From the IMG/VR virus record IMGVR_UViG_3300033049_000020, positions 32,001 to 96,000 of that record: a stretch of DNA of 64,000 nt; one strand, written 5' to 3'. Below are positions 11,544 through 20,173 of this stretch, in pieces. This DNA is from a virus. The stretch's first letter is position 1. Every line of letters starts with the position of its first letter. The position numbers were made by a program, and so were the translations under genes. The notes under the pieces were generated by a model. That model ran no database searches. It was not told where the DNA came from and saw nothing but the letters and a program-made list of their open reading frames with translations.

Positions 11544-12014
11544 ATGTCAAAACAACCAAAATATAGTGAATTATTTCCTGACTTAGAGGACGTATTCAGA
11601 GCATCTTTCAGCATTGCTGATTTAGAACGTAACGTTAATCTATGCGTTATTAACACTCTAAATTTACCGATTACCAACGGATTACCAACCAAAGTGGTCA
11701 AGGCGTCACCAAAAGTGAAATATCATACTGGTGGTGAAGAAAATGGGTATGATGTAGAGGTTGAGGTTAATGGAGCTATCTTTGAAATGTTAACCCCAGC
11801 TCACCAAGCAATTATCGCTGAAGAAACCATCGCTCAAATTTCATATAGTTTTGAGAATGATAAGATTGCCATCACTCAACCAGATTACCAAGTAATGTCA
11901 CTGATTGCTAATAAGCATGGACATAATATTATGGAAGGAGTACGTAAAACTGTTAAGGCGTGTTACTCTCAACAAAAAGACTTAGCAGACGAAACTAAAG
12001 CAATTACAGCATAA
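11544..12014 (+). CDS. Hypothetical protein
   Basis: 156 aa ORF coupled to clpP. Confidence 0.45.
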   Translation: MSKQPKYSELFPDLEDVFRASFSIADLERNVNLCVINTLNLPITNGLPTKVVKASPKVKYHTGGEENGYDVEVEVNGAIFEMLTPAHQAIIAEETIAQISYSFENDKIAITQPDYQVMSLIANKHGHNIMEGVRKTVKACYSQQKDLADETKAITA

Positions 12015-12700
12015 TGAATGATTTCGAAAATTACGCAAAGAACCATCTCGGTGTTAGTGGAATGCAATTCCACAACTGGGAGAAGATGCAAGAACGGTTG
12101 TATGGAGCGACTGCTTCAATGACCCCTTACATTGTTGAAGAACGAGAAATGAGAGCCATCCAGATGGACATTTTCTCTAGATTGATGATGGATAGGATTA
12201 TTTGGTTGGCAGGACCTGTCCACGATGGCATGTCAACAGTGGTTCAAGCGCAGTTAATGTGGCTCGATTTGCAAGACGATTCAACAGACATAACAATGCA
12301 TATTGATACTCCAGGAGGCTCAGTTAAATCTGGTCTAAGTATGATTGATGTTATGAAGTATATTAGTCCTGACATTATCACGATTAATACTGGAATGGCT
12401 GCAAGTATGGGGAGTGTACTGTTAGGTGCTGGTACAAAGGGTAAACGATACTCTCTACCACACTCAAGAGTGATGCTACACCAAGTTAGTGGTGGTGCTC
12501 AAGGTAATATCCAAGATATGGAGATTAGTATTGCAGAAGCTAAGAAGGTGAACGCAGAGTTGTTCGAATTACTTGGAGAGTACTGCGGTAAAGCTCCAGA
12601 ACAAGTATTAGAGGATTCAACTAGAGATAACTGGTTGAAGAGTGATGAGGCCGTAGAATATGGAATCATTGATGAGATAATTGTTAAGAAAGTTAAATAA
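12014..12700 (+). CDS. clpP: ClpP protease subunit
   Basis: DIFSRLMMDRII, TPGGSV, GMAASMG (catalytic Ser), MLHQ, RDNW. Confidence 0.95.
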   Translation: MNDFENYAKNHLGVSGMQFHNWEKMQERLYGATASMTPYIVEEREMRAIQMDIFSRLMMDRIIWLAGPVHDGMSTVVQAQLMWLDLQDDSTDITMHIDTPGGSVKSGLSMIDVMKYISPDIITINTGMAASMGSVLLGAGTKGKRYSLPHSRVMLHQVSGGAQGNIQDMEISIAEAKKVNAELFELLGEYCGKAPEQVLEDSTRDNWLKSDEAVEYGIIDEIIVKKVK

Positions 12701-12750
12701 GAGTTGCCTTTCTAAGTAAGAGTCTTATATTTATAATATAGCGAATACAT

Positions 12751-13126
12751 GGGGTCGACTGGTTTTGACTGCAAGAGATTGGATGTATAAGCAAGCACTG
12801 GGAATTTTTGGATTATACCAGTATAAAATGTATCTGAAAACTATAACTGACGAAACTAACGTAACATCAGCACAATATCTAGAAAGCATTGCACTTGCAG
12901 TGACTTCAGAGAAGGCAGCGCTATCTGCATAATAAGCGCCAATTAGGAGAAGCCTAATAAAGCCTCAGTGTTCTTTCATTGATGAGGTTGAAACTACAAA
13001 GAAAGATGGGTTTGTGAATTCCTATAAAGATTCACTAGTTTGATGGTTTAGAAAAACTAAATAAGCTTGTAGAAAGTATGTATGGTACTTGTTAGGACGA
13101 GGGTTCGATTCCCTCCGACTCCACCC
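12751..13126 (+). ncRNA. ssrA: tmRNA with 27-codon tag DETNVTSAQYLESIALAVTSEKAALSA (12849-12932)
   Basis: 5' GGGGTCG pairs with 3' CGACTCC-A; T-arm GAGGGTTCGATTCCCTC; ATAACT before resume codon; Ala-ending tag then TAATAA. Confidence 0.9.
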
Positions 13127-13874: not shown

Positions 13875-14313
13875 TTACTTTTTAGGTCTTGGCTTAGGCT
13901 TTGGCTTATTACAGCCACAACCTCTAAATTCAAATGATTTAAGTTGTGTTTTCATATCTATAAATATGCGTGAGCACGAATAAAGTCTTGAATCATTAGT
14001 AAAATGACTTAAATTAGTAAAAATGTTTGATAAGAAAATACACATAATCAACAAACAATGGGATTATATCACATCCATGAGAACAGCATCAGTTCCACAT
14101 AGAGACGAGCTAATTCATATTGACGGACAATACAATATAGTAGTAAATATAATCTACGAATCTAAGTGGTATGGTACCAAAATATTCGTTATTACGGAAC
14201 CAGTTACAACTAATATTGAACCTGAAACAGAAAAAAAGTAAGAAAAAGCTTGTATTATCGGATAATTATTCGTATCTTTGTCATCAACTAATATTTATAT
14301 AAAAACAAGTAAG

Positions 14314-14697
14314 ATGAAGAAAGAACAAGATTGTATGTAGATTTGTAAGAACAACAAGTTAATTACTATTACGAGGCAAGATATGCCTTATGGGTATCAG
14401 TGCGTCCAGAGCGCACATTCAGTAGCATACTTTGCTATTGACTACCGTGAAGAATTCGAAAGATGGCACGAGACCTCACAATACATGGTCTCCCTAGGTG
14501 CTAAAGATGAAAATCATTTAAAGGAGCTAATCAATAAAGCTGATGAGAAGGGTGTTAAAGTCTCTATCTTCATCGAGCCTGACCTTGATAATCAAATAAC
14601 GTCTATAACATTGGAACCTTGTGAGGCAGCTCGTAAGATGACCAGTTCATTACCAAAAATAATGAAAGAATTAGGTTGGGAGGTGCCAGCATCATGA
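14314..14697 (+). CDS. Pth2-like peptidyl-tRNA hydrolase with in-frame TAG at codon 9 (14338-14340)
   Basis: MKKEQDCM*ICKNNKLITITRQDMPYGYQCVQSAH...FIEPDLDNQITSI...TSSLP. Confidence 0.75.
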
Positions 14698-14997
14698 GAA
14701 CTATCATATTCAAAGACGATAAGGTACGCCCTATCACATTCCATTTCAATAAAGGTCATTTACAAGACTCTAACATTCCAATGTGGATTGTTAAGTATAA
14801 GGGTGAGACACATTACGTCCACCATGTTACTGTAAGTGAAGGGATAGGATTATCGACTAAGGAATCACCCGACCACCCGACTACCAAAGGTAGCTTAAGG
14901 TTCAAAGGGTCGTTAACCATAACTACAGGGGATGATAAGAAATTATTAGCCGAAATTTGCTAAAGTGAAAATAATTTAGTATCTTTGTATAATAGAA

Positions 14998-15068
14998 GTG
15001 TAGGTGTCAGAGTGGTTATGTAGTTCCCTGCAAAGGTTCTTACGGTGGTTCGATTCCATCCCTACACT
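14998..15068 (+). tRNA. tRNA-Cys(GCA), weak anticodon stem
   Basis: GTGTAGG/CCTACAC acceptor, CT-GCA-AA loop, U73. Confidence 0.65.
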
Positions 15069-15334
15069 CTTAATCATAATATTTATGGAATATTATTTAA
15101 CTAATAAATGACTAATTATTACGAAATAACTAAATACACTAAGTTCTTTATACAGCACTTGAACTCAGATGTATATACCATACATAGAGACGATAATAAT
15201 TGTCCTAATATTAAAGTAGGTGACACCATCAATGTCGGGGGTGAGGTATTTGAGATAGAGAAGATGGAAAGCTTTGAAAAATCATTCGGATTAAAGGGGC
15301 AGAACGTTGCAGTAGTAGTAAGAGCAAAGAATAT

Positions 15335-15408
15335 GCCTTTGTAGCTCAGTTGGTCAGAGTAGGGGACTCTAAATCCTTTGGTCGTGGGTTCGAATCCCAC
15401 CATTGGCA
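15335..15408 (+). tRNA. tRNA with CTA anticodon (amber-suppressor type)
   Basis: Cloverleaf; GGGGA-CT-CTA-AA-TCCTT; two U-U pairs in acceptor stem. Confidence 0.85.
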
Positions 15409-15413
15409 CATAA

Positions 15414-15482
15414 GGGACAATTGTAGGTACGGGTCTGAGATTCTAAACCTCAAGGCATGGGGTTCGAATCCCCATTGTCCCT
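15414..15482 (+). tRNA. Second CTA-anticodon tRNA, degenerate D-arm
   Basis: GGGACAA/TTGTCCC; TGAGA-TT-CTA-AA-CCTCA; canonical T-arm. Confidence 0.7.
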
Positions 15483-15515
15483 CTGTTATTACCAAATAAA
15501 CTTAATATCTTTATT

Positions 15516-16043: not shown

Positions 16044-16154
16044 TTATCAATCACTTAGTAATTATTTTCAAAAAACTTTACAATAATACTTGACAAATCC
16101 AAATAAATATAGTATCTTTGTATCATAATTAACCGAAAGGTTCTTTGAAATTTT

Positions 16155-16533
16155 GGCCTTGTAGCTCAGAGAAGACGGATTTATAAGTACTTCGGTACCT
16201 TTATCTTAAAGAGCACTGTCTAGACAGATGTCGCAGGTTGAATCCCTGCCGAGGCCACATATGGGGATGAAGTAAGTACACCTAGTGTAAACTGCTTTTG
16301 GAAGCTCACCCTTCCCATCCCCACCAATTGGGGACGAAGCATTGGGGTTAAAGCCAAACGCTTACTTGGTAGTGAAAATCTACCCGTCCCCACTAATATG
16401 CGTGGATAGCATAATCAGAAAGGACACTGATAATATTGTCGTTGAATTACATTCTTGGTCGACAATCGCTAATTATACCTTTCTAGTGCAACTGCTTAGG
16501 TAGTTTGTTGAGGTGGAAACCCTCATCCATGCA
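16155..16533 (+). ncRNA. Four tandem tRNA-like RNAs lacking a normal anticodon loop (16155-16257, 16263-16326, 16330-16395, 16400-16533)
   Basis: Each has a 7-bp acceptor stem and a T-arm-like hairpin; preceded by promoter and boxA-like GTTCTTTGAAA. Confidence 0.7.
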
Positions 16534-16541
16534 CTTTTTAA

Positions 16542-16737
16542 AAGTTAGGTTCAGCAACCAAATCCAACTATGGAAGTCTGTTTCATGCGTTAACTAACTA
16601 ACTTGTAAAATATTAAAAGTAGATTTCAGCAACCCAAATCTTTCAGATAAGAAAAACCATCTACTTGAACTTTTAAAGGAAGCTTACAGCAACTTACAAA
16701 TCTAAAATCAATTTTAACGGAAAAAGATGCCTTCCTG
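16542..16737 (+). ncRNA. Three tandem CAGCAA hairpin RNAs (16542-16605, 16617-16667, 16677-16737)
   Basis: Closing stems AAGTTAG/CTAACTT, AAGTAGA/TCTACTT, AGGAAG/CTTCCT, each followed by T(T/A)CAGCAA. Confidence 0.7.
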
Positions 16738-16744
16738 ATGCACT

Positions 16745-16774
16745 AAACCCTTAGCTAACCGCTAAGGGTTTTTT
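16745..16774 (+). terminator. Intrinsic terminator of the small-RNA operon
   Basis: AAACCCTTAGC-TAACC-GCTAAGGGTTT-TTT. Confidence 0.85.
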
Positions 16775-17469: not shown

Positions 17470-17928
17470 ATGAAGTTAGGAGAAGCATTTGATGAGATAA
17501 CTAACGAGCCACATATCGAAGTAGAGGATACGGAGGATGGGTTTGACGTAACGGTATATGTGGGTGGCATAAAAGCTGGTAAATTAGTGGCACAATACAT
17601 TACTGGTGGCTATTGGGGATTCGAGGATGAATTCAGTGAGGAGGAGTATGATGTAATGTTCCCAGACGATAGTTTCTTCAAGATTGAGTATGTATCTGTA
17701 GATGACGGATACAAGGGTGATGGGTTAGGTAAACTTATGATGAGTAAAGCGATTGCACTGATTAAGAATAATGGGATAGATACCGTATATTTGAATGCCT
17801 CTCCCATGGGCTTTACTGGTTTAGATATATCCGATTTAGTAGGGTTCTACAAGAAATTCGGATTTAAGGTTATACAAAAAACAGGTGATAAGTATCACGA
17901 GAATAAAGAAATGATATTGAAATTATGA
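17470..17928 (+). CDS. GNAT acetyltransferase (likely start 17470)
   Basis: VDDGYKGDGLGK; FYKKFGF. Confidence 0.85.
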   Translation: MKLGEAFDEITNEPHIEVEDTEDGFDVTVYVGGIKAGKLVAQYITGGYWGFEDEFSEEEYDVMFPDDSFFKIEYVSVDDGYKGDGLGKLMMSKAIALIKNNGIDTVYLNASPMGFTGLDISDLVGFYKKFGFKVIQKTGDKYHENKEMILKL

Positions 17929-18368
17929 GTGTAAGAGAAAATTTGCGAGGAAGACTACTAATCGAATCTGAGGAGAAGCGTATTCCTATGAATATTGAAA
18001 TCCCAGATGATATACGTAAGATTGAACAAGTGTTCAAGTCTAACGGTAAGAAGTTGTTCGTAGTGGGTGGCTCAATTAGAGACGCTATATTGGGTAAAGA
18101 ACCTAAAGATTGGGATTTGGCAACTGACGCGGTGCCAGATGATGTGATACGAATGCTTAAAATGCAATCGTTCGTCACTAACGTTATTGAGACTGGTAAA
18201 GCGTTCGGAGTCATTAATGCTTTGACAGTTAATGACGAATACGAAATTGCCACATTCAGAAAGGATATTTTTCATAATGAGAAGAAGGATTTAGATTCAT
18301 TTTTAATATATCTAAAAGGTACAGATATTGCTAAGTATGAATTGTTTAAAGAAGGGCTAATGAAATAG
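17925..18368 (+). CDS. CCA-adding/poly(A) polymerase family, N-terminal part
   Basis: VVGGSIRD, KDWDLAT, GKAFG, EIATFRKD. Confidence 0.9.
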   Translation: MSVRENLRGRLLIESEEKRIPMNIEIPDDIRKIEQVFKSNGKKLFVVGGSIRDAILGKEPKDWDLATDAVPDDVIRMLKMQSFVTNVIETGKAFGVINALTVNDEYEIATFRKDIFHNEKKDLDSFLIYLKGTDIAKYELFKEGLMK

Positions 18369-18386
18369 CGACTTTTAGACTTCTTC

Positions 18387-19085
18387 ATGATATTTATAAT
18401 AAAGAATATCATGGTAAAAGGTTACATATATAAATTGATTTGTCCGATAAGTGGTGAATGTAGATATGTTGGTAAGACTGTTCAGAGATTAAATAAACGA
18501 CTTAACAAACATAAGTATGATAAGAGAAAGAATCCGAGCCATAAGAATAGTTGGTTAATTCAATTAGAGGATAAAGGGTTATTAGGTGATATAAAAATTG
18601 AAATAATAGAGGAATGTGATACTTCGGTATTAAATGATAGGGAAATATTTTGGATTGCTAAATTAACTAGTAGTGGTTATAAGTTAACCAATATGACGGA
18701 AGGTGGTGATGTTGGTTCGTTAGGTTATAAACACACTGACGAAGCCATACGTAAAATTTCTGAGGCTGGAAAAAAACGTAAGGGGTTTAAACATACTGAT
18801 GAAGCTAAGAAAAACATTAGTAAATCTCTTATTGGTAATGATAGGCATAAAGGGTGTAACCATTCGGAAGAAACGAAGAAACAAATATCCGAAAGTAAGA
18901 AAGGTACTGTTAGTTGGAATGCACAAACAGTTTTACAATTGGATAAGGAAAGTAACATAATAAGTGAGTGGAGAAGTGCTAAGTATGCTGCCGAACAACT
19001 TGGTTTAAGTCAGGGTAATATTTGGTCGGTAATAAACGGTGACCGAAACACTTGTGGTGGGTTTAAATGGAAAAAAAATGGATGA
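18387..19085 (+). CDS. GIY-YIG homing endonuclease (NUMOD3/NUMOD1) interrupting the CCA-adding enzyme gene
   Basis: GYIY..YVGKT; HTDE/HSEETK repeats; GFKW. Confidence 0.85.
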   Translation: MIFIIKNIMVKGYIYKLICPISGECRYVGKTVQRLNKRLNKHKYDKRKNPSHKNSWLIQLEDKGLLGDIKIEIIEECDTSVLNDREIFWIAKLTSSGYKLTNMTEGGDVGSLGYKHTDEAIRKISEAGKKRKGFKHTDEAKKNISKSLIGNDRHKGCNHSEETKKQISESKKGTVSWNAQTVLQLDKESNIISEWRSAKYAAEQLGLSQGNIWSVINGDRNTCGGFKWKKNG

Positions 19086-19258
19086 AACTTATAAATATAT
19101 GAAAGGGTGGGTCGATAGAGTTAATCAACCACAAAAAGATTTTTGGGTTGAAACTCCATGGGGTAGATTTAAAAATCTTAGACCTATAACAACAGAAAAT
19201 GACGAGATTGGTGAAATTACTATAACTATGCAATATGATAAATGGGATAAACAATCAG

Positions 19259-20173
19259 ATGATGAGTAACTGGGAAGAAATAGCTAAACAATTGGTACCT
19301 GATGAATATAATGAGTTTATGGCTCATTCTTCTGATGGCCGTAGACCAGATGAGGTAGAGTTCACGGACATTGCAACCGATGTTAAAAGGCGAGACTTGA
19401 CTATTAACGCACTTTTTTATGATTTGGATACCAATGAGGTTGTTGACCTCGTAGGTGGAGTAGAGGACATTAAAAATGGTGTAGTGAAGACCGTAGGGGA
19501 TGCTGGCGAACGTTTTGAAGAGGATAAACTTAGAATCCTCAGAGCTATCAGGTTTGCTGGTAGATTCGGGAGTCAAGTGGATTCAAAGATTGACCAACTA
19601 CTTAGTAAGGATATTGACATGTCCCAGATTTCTGGAGAACGTATTAGAGACGAGTTCATTAAAGGTATTGAAAAGGCTAAATCAACAGTGCAATTCTTAG
19701 CTCTGATGAACAAGTACGACCTATTGGCACATGTGTTTCCAGACTTAATTCCTAAAGCAGGGGCTAATTCTAAAACGTTTATGGAGAGCCATGACCCAGT
19801 ACTGGTCATATCCTCAATCCTATTACCATTTGCAACCAGTAAATTAAAATCTCAATTGAATGGGCTTAAATACCCACAGTCTGAGGCTTCTAATATAGAA
19901 TTTTTAACGACTTGGCTACCAAATCTTAACCCTAATTTCATAAATCAATTTAAGAAGAAGCAAGTCAGAACTACATTATCTGATGAACAGGTAATGGAGT
20001 TTGCCAAGTTCAACAGTATGGATGTTAATATGATTTCTACTATGCTTAAGTTTAACCTAAGCGTTAAAGGTGATGAAGTGATGTCCAAATATGGAATTAA
20101 GGGTAAAGAAGTGGGTAACATGATAGATAAACTTGAGGCCAGTAACTTCAAGTCTACCCTTAATAACTTGTAG
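19259..20173 (+). CDS. CCA-adding/poly(A) polymerase family, C-terminal part
   Basis: DGRRPD, RRDLTINAL, RFEEDKLRILRAIRF, ISGERIRDE. Confidence 0.9.
   Translation: MMSNWEEIAKQLVPDEYNEFMAHSSDGRRPDEVEFTDIATDVKRRDLTINALFYDLDTNEVVDLVGGVEDIKNGVVKTVGDAGERFEEDKLRILRAIRFAGRFGSQVDSKIDQLLSKDIDMSQISGERIRDEFIKGIEKAKSTVQFLALMNKYDLLAHVFPDLIPKAGANSKTFMESHDPVLVISSILLPFATSKLKSQLNGLKYPQSEASNIEFLTTWLPNLNPNFINQFKKKQVRTTLSDEQVMEFAKFNSMDVNMISTMLKFNLSVKGDEVMSKYGIKGKEVGNMIDKLEASNFKSTLNNL

What the first reader, a model, noticed from the sequence alone, without database searches (positions are those of the whole stretch)
14314..15482. Pth2-like gene needs TAG read-through and lies next to two CUA-anticodon tRNAs
ATG 14314 reads MKKEQDCM-TAG-ICKNNKLITITRQD in frame with the ORF at 14383. 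KLITITRQD resembles the first beta-strand of Pth2 (K-x-V-I-V-V-R-x-D) and no ATG lies between the TAG and this strand. Two CTA-anticodon tRNAs follow about 1 kb downstream. Other genes end normally at TAG (for example 20173, 23522, 26380), so the genome is not globally recoded. Inference: a termination-efficiency sensor that makes peptidyl-tRNA hydrolase when RF1 is limiting or the suppressor tRNAs are expressed.
Basis: partly seen in the sequence, partly recalled or inferred. Interest (0 to 1): 0.8.

Follow-up and report, generated by a model that had tools for sequence, protein, structure and literature searches.

The report
Amber-gated phage Pth2-like gene with suppressor tRNAs
A large phage of Bacteroidota keeps a UAG stop as codon 9 of a small tRNA-hydrolase-like gene and carries two UAG-reading tRNAs 1 kb away; over 100 diverged phage loci, one from a lab-grown phage, keep this layout, so the enzyme and a coupled partner protein are probably made only when the phage's own tRNA overrides the stop.

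Summary
ATG 14314, eight codons, TAG 14338-14340, then an open frame to TGA 14695-14697 encode a Pth2-fold protein. Its first strand and two invariant residues lie upstream of the next canonical start, ATG 14383. Two tRNA(CUA) genes lie at 15335-15409 and 15414-15483.

The 152-kb fragment is not TAG-recoded, and I found no other gene in it that needs read-through. But it is only about 43% of the phage.

Among 137 non-redundant related phage loci, 102 have an ATG, 1-8 codons, and then an in-frame stop before the same strand. That stop is always TAG, never TAA or TGA. In the 72-locus subset tallied, the base after TAG is a purine in 71. A CUA (rarely UUA) tRNA lies within about 5 kb in 89 of the 102.

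A conserved 89-aa protein of unknown fold follows, coupled by an ATGA overlap. In six other phage loci checked it carries its own ATG-x-TAG gate.

Best reading (0.65): an operon gated by the suppressor tRNA. The link to the tRNAs is supported. RF1 sensing and hydrolase activity are untested. I found no published description. This scan has already noted the same motif on many other genomes.

The parts
14273..14280 (+). Promoter-like box TATCTTTG, which fits the Bacteroidota -7 consensus TAnnTTTG. It lies 34 nt upstream of ATG 14314, and no ATG lies in between.
   Evidence: The motif occurs 31 times in the window against 4.1 expected, mostly on the + strand; sequence. Its function as a promoter is inferred.
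14314..14337 (+). Leader of 8 sense codons (MKKEQDCM). A second ATG at 14335 sits directly before the stop.
   Evidence: Relatives have leaders of 1-8 codons with unrelated sequences.
14338..14340 (+). In-frame TAG (the gate), followed by ATT, so the base after the stop is A.
   Evidence: TAG is kept in 102 of 137 related loci and is never TAA or TGA. The base after it is A in 59, G in 12, C in 1 and T in 0.
14341..14697 (+). Body of the Pth2-like protein (118 aa plus the stop TGA 14695-14697). Strand 1 is residues 7-12 (14359-14376), upstream of ATG 14383.
   Evidence: Pfam PF01981; PDB profile match to 2zv3, E 3e-9; AlphaFold2 pLDDT 92.7; Foldseek TM 0.72-0.77 to archaeal Pth2 and Bit1.
14694..14963 (+). 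Conserved 89-aa partner gene. Its ATG overlaps the Pth2-like stop (ATGA), which suggests translational coupling.
   Evidence: tblastn finds it at 41-68% identity directly downstream of the Pth2-like gene in about 40 loci. In L055, L061, L074, L078, L092 and L164 it has its own ATG-x-TAG gate. No Pfam, PHROG or solved-fold match.
14980..14987 (+). Second TATCTTTG box, 11 nt upstream of tRNA-Cys. It is the likely promoter of the tRNA unit.
14998..15069 (+). tRNA-Cys (GCA).
   Evidence: 44 bits.
15335..15409 (+). tRNA(CUA) no. 1. Anticodon loop CU-CUA-AA, discriminator A73, and two U-U mismatches in the acceptor stem.
   Evidence: ARAGORN; Rfam tRNA 64.4 bits.
15414..15483 (+). tRNA(CUA) no. 2. 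It has a shortened D arm, anticodon loop UU-CUA-AA closed by an A-C mismatch, and discriminator U73.
   Evidence: ARAGORN; Rfam tRNA 31.8 bits, just above the gathering score of 29. Similar short CUA tRNAs occur in L003 and L040.

Best explanation
This is a small operon gated by the phage's own amber-suppressor tRNAs. The proposed steps are as follows. Transcription starts just after the TATCTTTG box at 14273 (inferred). Ribosomes start at ATG 14314, the first ATG of the mRNA (inferred), and meet UAG as codon 9. If RF1 acts there, only an octapeptide is made. If one of the two phage tRNA(CUA) species, made from the neighbouring unit behind the same kind of promoter box, reads the UAG, the ribosome goes on to make the 127-aa protein with a complete Pth2 fold. 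On reaching TGA 14695 it restarts at the overlapping ATG 14694 and makes the 89-aa partner. Both proteins would therefore be made in step with suppressor activity. What is shown: the anatomy, the fold, the conservation of TAG in frame with both the ATG and the domain, its purine context, and its co-occurrence with CUA tRNAs. What is inferred: that the tRNAs are expressed and charged, that read-through happens, and what the proteins do. My guess for the function (about 0.3) is that this tRNA-ester hydrolase deals with by-products of suppression, or acts on the suppressor tRNA itself.
For: Strand 1 and the invariant residues R12 and D14 are encoded between the TAG and the next canonical start. 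TAG is kept in frame in 102 of 137 non-redundant related loci and is never TAA or TGA, although TAA ends 124 of 180 ORFs in this genome. Leader length and sequence vary (2 codons in 38 loci, 3 in 13, 4 in 13, up to 8) while the TAG stays. Clustered at 70% identity, 41 of 55 protein clusters are entirely gated. The base after TAG is a purine in 71 of 72; from my own knowledge (Bossi 1983; Miller and Albertini 1983) this context favours amber suppression. A CUA or UUA tRNA lies in the locus of 89 of 102 gated loci against 12 of 35 ungated ones. With at least 2.5 kb of flank the counts are 76 and 6 against 10 and 20 (odds ratio 25), and the CUA tRNA is often the only tRNA in 10 kb. The complete genome of the cultured Tenacibaculum phage pT24 has ATG-AAA-TAG-ATA before its Pth2-HD fusion and a tRNA(CUA) 2.5 kb upstream, one of only 4 tRNAs. 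The partner gene carries the same ATG-x-TAG-ATT gate where it is not coupled. Some relatives have further TAGs inside the domain, which only decoding can pass. The first 10 residues of the model are the least confident part of the folded region (mean pLDDT 79), so any inserted residue should be tolerated. This fits the mixed discriminator bases of the tRNAs: A in 46, U in 14, G in 10.
Against: Nothing here is experimental. Whether the tRNAs are expressed, processed and charged, and with which amino acid, is unknown. tRNA no. 1 has two U-U mismatches in its acceptor stem, and no. 2 barely passes the Rfam threshold. TAG also ends 23 ordinary ORFs in this fragment, with no sign of back-up stops (p = 0.29), so a strong suppressor should be costly. 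ATT follows the TAG in 48 of 72 loci; ATT can serve as a weak start codon, so restarting is not excluded for those. Thirteen gated loci show no suppressor tRNA within the DNA held, and 12 ungated loci have one. The loci are related by descent, so the Fisher p-values overstate independence.
Confidence: 0.65

Rival explanations
1. The phage is TAG-recoded in late genes that lie in the unseen 57% of its genome. Decoding those genes would be the main job of the CUA tRNAs, and the Pth2-like TAG would be just one more recoded codon that times this gene to the late phase.
For: CheckV puts the record at 43% complete. The largest ORFs in hand are replication, nucleotide-metabolism and unknown proteins, and no capsid or tail gene was recognised. 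Block-wise recoding of late genes is documented in phages (bioRxiv 10.1101/2021.08.26.457843). A few relatives have extra TAGs inside the domain.
Against: I found no other gene in the 152 kb that needs TAG read-through. In most related 10-kb loci, TAG-as-sense gains no more than the TGA-as-sense control. The cultured phage pT24 is annotated throughout in the standard code. A randomly recoded codon would not stay at one position across 41 diverged clusters. This rival overlaps with the gate reading rather than excluding it.
Confidence: 0.15
2. The leader is a mini-ORF. The ribosome terminates at TAG and restarts at the adjacent AUU 14341 (a weak, non-canonical start), so no read-through is needed.
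For: ATT, ATA, ATC, ATG or GTG follows the TAG in 56 of 72 loci, and ATT alone in 48. Very short ORFs that abut a start are a known coupling device (my own knowledge).
Against: In 15 of 72 loci the next codon is GTA, GTT, AAC, AGC, AAA or GGC, with no start before strand 1; the closest relative L009 (TAG-GTT) is a further case outside that tally. Restarting would work with any stop, yet all 102 gates use TAG, the rarest stop here. It does not explain the linkage to CUA tRNAs or the TAGs inside the domain in some relatives.
Confidence: 0.1
3. The gate senses RF1 activity on its own. When RF1 is scarce or inhibited during infection, near-cognate host tRNAs read the UAG, and the phage tRNAs are not required.
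For: TAG is the one stop read only by RF1, which fits the exclusive use of TAG. Thirteen gated loci show no CUA tRNA in the DNA held.
Against: Seven of those 13 have short flanks, and the tRNA may lie elsewhere in the genome. The co-occurrence with CUA tRNAs is strong. No gene of the RF-1 family was found in the fragment, and I did not look for any inhibitor of RF1.
Confidence: 0.07
4. The gene is broken or shortened, and a 104-aa protein starting at ATG 14383 is the real product, or there is none.
For: Gene callers report the 104-aa form for this gene and its close relatives (P0001, P0003-P0007).
Against: That form lacks strand 1 and the invariant residues R12 and D14. The upstream codons are conserved as protein in distant phages. 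A chance nonsense mutation would not recur at the same place in 102 loci.
Confidence: 0.03

Closest known systems
Stop-codon-recoded phages with phage-encoded suppressor tRNAs (TAG read as Gln, 'code 15'; crAss-like, Lak and others; Borges et al., bioRxiv 10.1101/2021.08.26.457843)
   Same: A phage-encoded tRNA(CUA), and an in-frame TAG that blocks translation until the tRNA is present, proposed there as a timer for gene expression.
   Different: In those phages TAG is scattered through many late and lysis genes. Here a single TAG sits at a fixed place, 1-8 codons after the ATG, in one small operon of a genome stretch that otherwise uses TAG as a stop. That paper does not mention a hydrolase.
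prfB (RF2) autoregulation through an early in-frame UGA
   Same: A conserved in-frame stop near the 5' end makes synthesis depend on failure of termination at that codon.
   Different: prfB needs a +1 frameshift, and its product is the factor that reads the stop, which closes the loop. Here the frame continues straight through, the decoder is a separate tRNA gene, and nothing shows that the product acts on UAG decoding.
Archaeal and eukaryotic peptidyl-tRNA hydrolase 2 (Pth2/Bit1; PDB 2zv3, 3erj, 1q7s, 1xty)
   Same: The same fold (TM 0.72-0.77) and shared motifs: KL-x-V-V-x-R-x-D-L in strand 1 and Q-x-x-H-A in helix 1.
   Different: Only 17-26% identity. The phage family lacks the two-residue G-K insert after strand 1. 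It has E-P-D...N-Q-I-T where Pth2 has D-A-G-x-T, with a 3-4 residue deletion. Activity is untested.
Orphan suppressor tRNAs of standard-code phages (for example Xanthomonas phage XacN1, Stenotrophomonas phage Summit)
   Same: CUA tRNAs in phages that otherwise use the standard code.
   Different: The authors of those studies looked past annotated stop codons and found no target genes (PMC5852040; PMC9022506 abstract). Here a target is evident at the 5' end of a gene. XacN1's own distant Pth2-like domain is a C-terminal fusion without this gate.
Lambda bar-type minigenes (two- or three-codon ORFs that shed peptidyl-tRNA and are toxic when Pth is low; my own knowledge)
   Same: When not suppressed, most leaders are ATG-x-stop minigenes, and they sit in front of a Pth-like gene.
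   Different: No evidence here of drop-off or toxicity. The window's own leader has 8 codons. This is a lead, not a test.

Membership tests
Pfam PTH2 (PF01981) / Pth2 fold | HMM score above the curated cut-off | tested here: met
   33.6 bits against 23 for the read-through form, and 31.9 for the form starting at ATG 14383; 33.2 bits in the genome search.
Pfam PTH2 (PF01981) / Pth2 fold | Alpha/beta fold with a four-stranded sheet that superposes on solved Pth2 | tested here: met
   AlphaFold2 pLDDT 92.7, strands at 7-12, 49-54, 74-79 and 85-91. Foldseek to 2zv3, 3erj, 1q7s and 1xty gives TM 0.70-0.77 and E values of 6e-7 to 1e-5.
Pfam PTH2 (PF01981) / Pth2 fold | Canonical active-site motifs (the G-K after strand 1 and D-A-G-x-T before strand 4) | tested here: inconclusive
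   The profile alignment to 2zv3 shows that both motifs are altered or shortened in the phage family, while R-x-D and Q-x-x-H are kept. Which residues are catalytic rests on my memory; the paper I tried to check was not held.
Pfam PTH2 (PF01981) / Pth2 fold | Hydrolysis of peptidyl-tRNA | not testable with these tools
   Needs an enzyme assay.
Amber suppressor tRNA | Cloverleaf that passes the Rfam tRNA threshold | tested here: met
   64.4 and 31.8 bits against a gathering score of 29. The second has a shortened D arm.
Amber suppressor tRNA | Anticodon CUA in a 7-nt loop with U33 and a purine at 37 | tested here: met
   The loops are CU-CUA-AA and UU-CUA-AA. Of the related CUA tRNAs with a readable loop, 55 of 70 have CU-CUA-AA.
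Amber suppressor tRNA | Expressed, charged and active at UAG | not testable with these tools
   Comparison with the genome's other tRNAs named no parent (best identity 0.69).
TAG-recoded phage (code 15) | In-frame TAG in many genes and low coding density under the standard code | tested here: not met
   Reading TAG as sense raises ORF length 1.12-fold, less than the TGA control at 1.19. I found no other gene in the 152 kb that needs it. Only 43% of the phage has been seen.
prfB-like autoregulatory recoding | Conserved early in-frame stop | tested here: met
   TAG lies 1-8 codons after the ATG in 102 of 137 loci.
prfB-like autoregulatory recoding | A frameshift is needed, and the product is the factor that reads the stop | tested here: not met
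   The frame is continuous. The product has a Pth2 fold and is not a release factor.
Termination-reinitiation at an upstream mini-ORF | A usable start codon at or next to the stop; any stop codon serves | tested here: not met
   15 of 72 loci have a non-start codon after the TAG and no start before strand 1. The stop is TAG in every one of the 102 gates.

The most novel reading that the evidence does not exclude
The module is a self-contained homeostat for suppression. The Pth2-like enzyme, perhaps together with the 89-aa partner, strips the amino acid or peptide from the suppressor tRNA itself, or from tRNAs stranded by read-through. Because making the enzyme needs that same tRNA to read its UAG, the pair forms a negative feedback loop that sets how strongly UAG is overridden in the infected cell. 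This would give the orphan suppressor tRNAs of standard-code phages a defined circuit. It would also explain why relatives without a gate still sit beside tRNAs with odd UCA-like anticodon loops.
Probability: 0.15. Interest if true: 0.85.

Novelty: new variant of a known kind. Interest (0 to 1): 0.7.

Why it matters
Suppressor tRNAs turn up in many phages that use the standard code, and published analyses report finding no target genes for them (PMC5852040; PMC9022506). This layout supplies a concrete, conserved target: a translation-related enzyme whose synthesis appears locked to the phage's own UAG-reading tRNA. The lab-grown phage pT24 has the same layout, so the idea can be tested directly.

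If the reading holds, it would be a compact natural example of gene control by competition between a tRNA and a release factor. It might also represent a stage on the way to full stop-codon reassignment.

There is a practical point as well. Gene callers cut these genes short: 104 aa here, and an internal ATG in the pT24 record. Annotations of this family are therefore systematically wrong at the 5' end.

Tried and rejected
- **Complex prediction:** Complex prediction for the Pth2-like protein with the 89-aa partner did not complete. There is no result either way.
- **Fold of the 89-aa partner:** Foldseek against the PDB found nothing at E <= 0.001. VIA-align wide gave a best Z of 3.4. The Atlas search by features gave no usable hit, and the Atlas fold library was not available. 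Pfam and PHROGs gave nothing.
- **Other TAG-gated genes in this genome:** every candidate from the scan turned out to have an ordinary ATG start or to be two adjacent genes in one frame.
- **Back-up stops after TAG-terminated genes:** they lie no closer than after other stops (p = 0.29).
- **Release factor:** no gene of the RF-1 family in the fragment.
- **Which amino acid the CUA tRNAs carry:** comparison with the genome's 41 other tRNAs gave no parent. Columns aligned to internal TAGs in relatives are mostly E, D or Q, which is not decisive.
- **Initiator-tRNA reading of UAG:** the CUA tRNAs lack the three G-C pairs next to the loop and the 1-72 mismatch (by eye).
- **Literature:** four full-text searches found no description of this layout. 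The paper on Pth2 active-site residues was not held.
- **First alignment for the locus search:** too diverse to give search patterns.

Full report
**Setting**

The window is bases 32001-96000 of a single 152,464-bp IMG/VR virus record (36.5% G+C). CheckV rates it about 43% complete. Genes run almost entirely on the + strand. The window holds 29 tRNA genes and a tmRNA, and the whole record holds 43 tRNAs. The box TATCTTTG, which fits the Bacteroidota -7 promoter consensus TAnnTTTG (my own knowledge), occurs 31 times against 4.1 expected. The closest cultured relative of the gene in question is a Tenacibaculum phage. This is therefore a fragment of a large, tRNA-rich phage of Bacteroidota.

- ATG 14314 is followed by seven codons, TAG at 14338-14340, ATT at 14341, and an open frame to TGA 14695-14697.
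- No ATG, GTG or TTG lies between the TAG and ATG 14383.
- The product matches Pfam PTH2 above its cut-off. The match reaches further toward the N-terminus when the upstream codons are included.
- A profile of 53 family members aligns K-L-I-T-I-T-R-Q-D with the first strand of solved archaeal Pth2, from residue 2 of chain 2zv3.
- The AlphaFold2 model (pLDDT 92.7) places strand 1 at residues 7-12 of the product counted from ATT 14341. Met15 is ATG 14383.
- The model superposes on Pth2/Bit1 structures with TM 0.72-0.77.
- The family-invariant residues R12 and D14 lie before Met15. A start at 14383 would therefore lose one of four sheet strands and two of ten invariant residues.
- Two CUA-anticodon tRNAs lie at 15335-15409 and 15414-15483. 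The first scores well but has two U-U mismatches in its acceptor stem. The second has a shortened D arm and only just passes the Rfam threshold.

**The fragment is not TAG-recoded**

Reading TAG as sense lengthens ORFs less than the TGA control does. Every other candidate for read-through turned out to be one of three things:
- a gene with an ordinary ATG start;
- two adjacent genes that share a frame;
- a split gene carrying an inserted homing endonuclease.

Most of the phage is unseen, however, and I recognised no structural gene among the largest ORFs.

**Comparative evidence is the core of the case**

tblastn against deposited phage genomes showed the same layout in very distant phages:
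- ATG-AAA-TAG-ATA in Tenacibaculum phage pT24;
- ATG-TCG-TAG-ATT and ATG-AAG-TAG-ATT in two uncultured huge phages.

Close relatives recovered through the protein database keep the TAG while the leader changes: MKKEVDCI-TAG-V, MEEVG-TAG-I and MKDM-TAG-I. The 'Q' in one database protein is a TAG in the DNA.

Two profile-guided scans of IMG/VR gave about 160 loci. Among 137 non-redundant loci:
- 102 have an in-frame ATG, 1-8 codons, a stop, and then the conserved strand. The stop is TAG in all 102 and never TAA or TGA.
- In the first set of 72, the base after TAG is A in 59, G in 12, C in 1 and T in 0. From my own knowledge, this is the context that favours amber suppressors.
- A CUA (rarely UUA) tRNA lies on the same strand within the locus in 89 of the 102 gated loci, against 12 of 35 ungated ones.
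- With at least 2.5 kb of flank the counts are 76 and 6 against 10 and 20, an odds ratio of 25.
- The tRNA often sits about 70 nt upstream of the gene or about 1 kb downstream, and it is often the only tRNA in 10 kb.

The loci are related by descent, so the p-values overstate independence. Even so, at 70% protein identity there are 55 clusters, 41 of them entirely gated. In pT24, a complete genome annotated in the standard code, one of only four tRNAs is a tRNA(CUA), 2.5 kb upstream of the gated gene. The deposited CDS starts at an internal ATG.

**A second gene belongs to the module**

The ORF at 14694-14963 starts with an ATG that overlaps the Pth2-like stop (ATGA). Its product is conserved at 41-68% identity directly downstream of the Pth2-like gene in about 40 loci. 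In six loci where it is not coupled in this way, it has its own ATG-x-TAG-AT(T) gate. The gate thus behaves as a portable element, applied to both genes. The partner is a small all-beta protein (pLDDT 87.7) with no family or fold match.

**Weighing the rival readings**

- **Restart at AUU.** This fits the frequent ATT (48 of 72). It fails for 15 loci with codons that cannot start translation, and likewise for the closest relative. It does not explain why only TAG is used or why CUA tRNAs travel with the gate.
- **RF1 sensing without the tRNAs.** This fits the TAG-only rule but not the linkage.
- **Late-gene recoding in the unseen part of the genome.** This cannot be excluded. It would complement the gate reading rather than replace it.
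- **A broken gene.** This is excluded by conservation.

**What the proteins do is open**

The family has the Pth2 fold but differs from canonical Pth2 at two conserved motifs. The suppressor tRNAs fall into at least three discriminator classes. The gate lies in the less confident N-terminal tail, so the inserted residue probably does not matter.

Ungated relatives in G+C-rich phages still sit 1-2 kb from tRNAs with odd anticodon loops containing UUCA. In the L089 and L103 loci inspected, a protein resembling a tRNA-binding domain and an HD-domain protein lie in between (both domain calls are by eye). In pT24 the Pth2-like domain is fused to a domain with an HD motif. The enzyme's tie to unusual tRNAs therefore seems deeper than the gate itself. 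I rate 'handles by-products of suppression or acts on the suppressor tRNA' at about 0.3.

**Novelty**

Four full-text searches found no description of this layout. Published work on suppressor tRNAs in standard-code phages reports no identified targets (abstract). The main paper on phage recoding does not mention a hydrolase.

This scan has already noted the same motif on at least 143 other genomes. I reached my reading before I looked at those notes, and it agrees with them. I could not reproduce one note's claim that the stop codon and the anticodon change together, because I found no TAA or TGA gates.

I class this as a new variant of a known kind: gene control by a phage suppressor tRNA, here confined to a single fixed codon in one operon.

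Noticed in passing
window 12014-13126: A ClpP protease gene (12014-12700; Pfam CLP_protease, E 1e-61) sits directly upstream of a phage tmRNA (12751-13126; Rfam 90.7 bits; tag ends ...AALSA). Both lie 1.2 kb upstream of the gated operon. The same ClpP-tmRNA-Pth2 order occurs in the relative L014. It may form a ribosome-rescue and quality-control block together with the suppressor module.
   Followed up: partly
window 17925-20173: The gene for a CCA-adding enzyme is split. 17925-18368 matches PolyA_pol head positions 1-77, and 19226-20173 matches positions 72-125 plus the RNA-binding domain. A GIY-YIG/NUMOD homing endonuclease gene (18387-19085) lies between them. It is a likely intron or split-gene arrangement. 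The TAG at 18366 is a real stop.
   Followed up: partly
window 16148-16546: Behind another TATCTTTG box (16113) lie four tRNA-like sequences that ARAGORN and Rfam do not call. One has tRNA acceptor and T arms with an insert of about 37 nt in the D region (16154-16257). Two are Y-shaped RNAs of about 60 nt with 7-bp acceptor-like stems (16263-16322 and 16330-16391; folding z-scores -3.4 and -3.9). One is a longer version (16399-16533). A terminator follows at 16745-16771.
   Followed up: partly
L089, L095-L115, L121 (IMG/VR loci), about 0.3-2 kb downstream of the Pth2-like gene: A G+C-rich clade has an ordinary ATG start and no TAG gate. Instead it has one or two tRNAs with 6- or 8-nt anticodon loops containing UUCA, which ARAGORN reports as 'ttca', 'tc' or Glu. 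These may read UGA. In the L089 and L103 loci inspected, a protein that looks like a tRNA-binding domain and a SpoT-like HD-domain protein (both judged by eye from the translation) lie between the gene and the tRNAs.
   Followed up: partly
L001 (Tenacibaculum phage pT24, LC168164.1) 1465-2418: In pT24 the gated Pth2-like domain is fused to a C-terminal domain of about 200 aa with an H-D-L-G-K-P motif (HD-like). The deposited CDS BPT24_235 starts at an internal ATG (locus position 1600) and so lacks strand 1.
   Followed up: partly
L037/L038 3963-5333: A single open frame holds two gate motifs (MKH-TAG-I and MKET-TAG-I). They flank an insert of about 330 aa rich in C-P-I-H-G-E-F-E-Q repeats. 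It looks like a Pth2-like gene interrupted or duplicated around a mobile insert.
   Followed up: no
whole record (window 24204-63740 and beyond): Many of the phage's tRNAs are unusually long for their type (for example Met 93 nt; Cys, Asn and Asp 87 nt). One is called with a 4-base anticodon 'aaaa' (genome 105677-105762). No tRNA for Trp or Ala, and no Ile(GAU) tRNA, was found in the fragment.
   Followed up: no
window 15108-15344: A 78-aa ORF lies between tRNA-Cys and the first CUA tRNA and overlaps that tRNA by 10 nt. It has no homolog in any related locus, so it is probably not a gene.
   Followed up: partly
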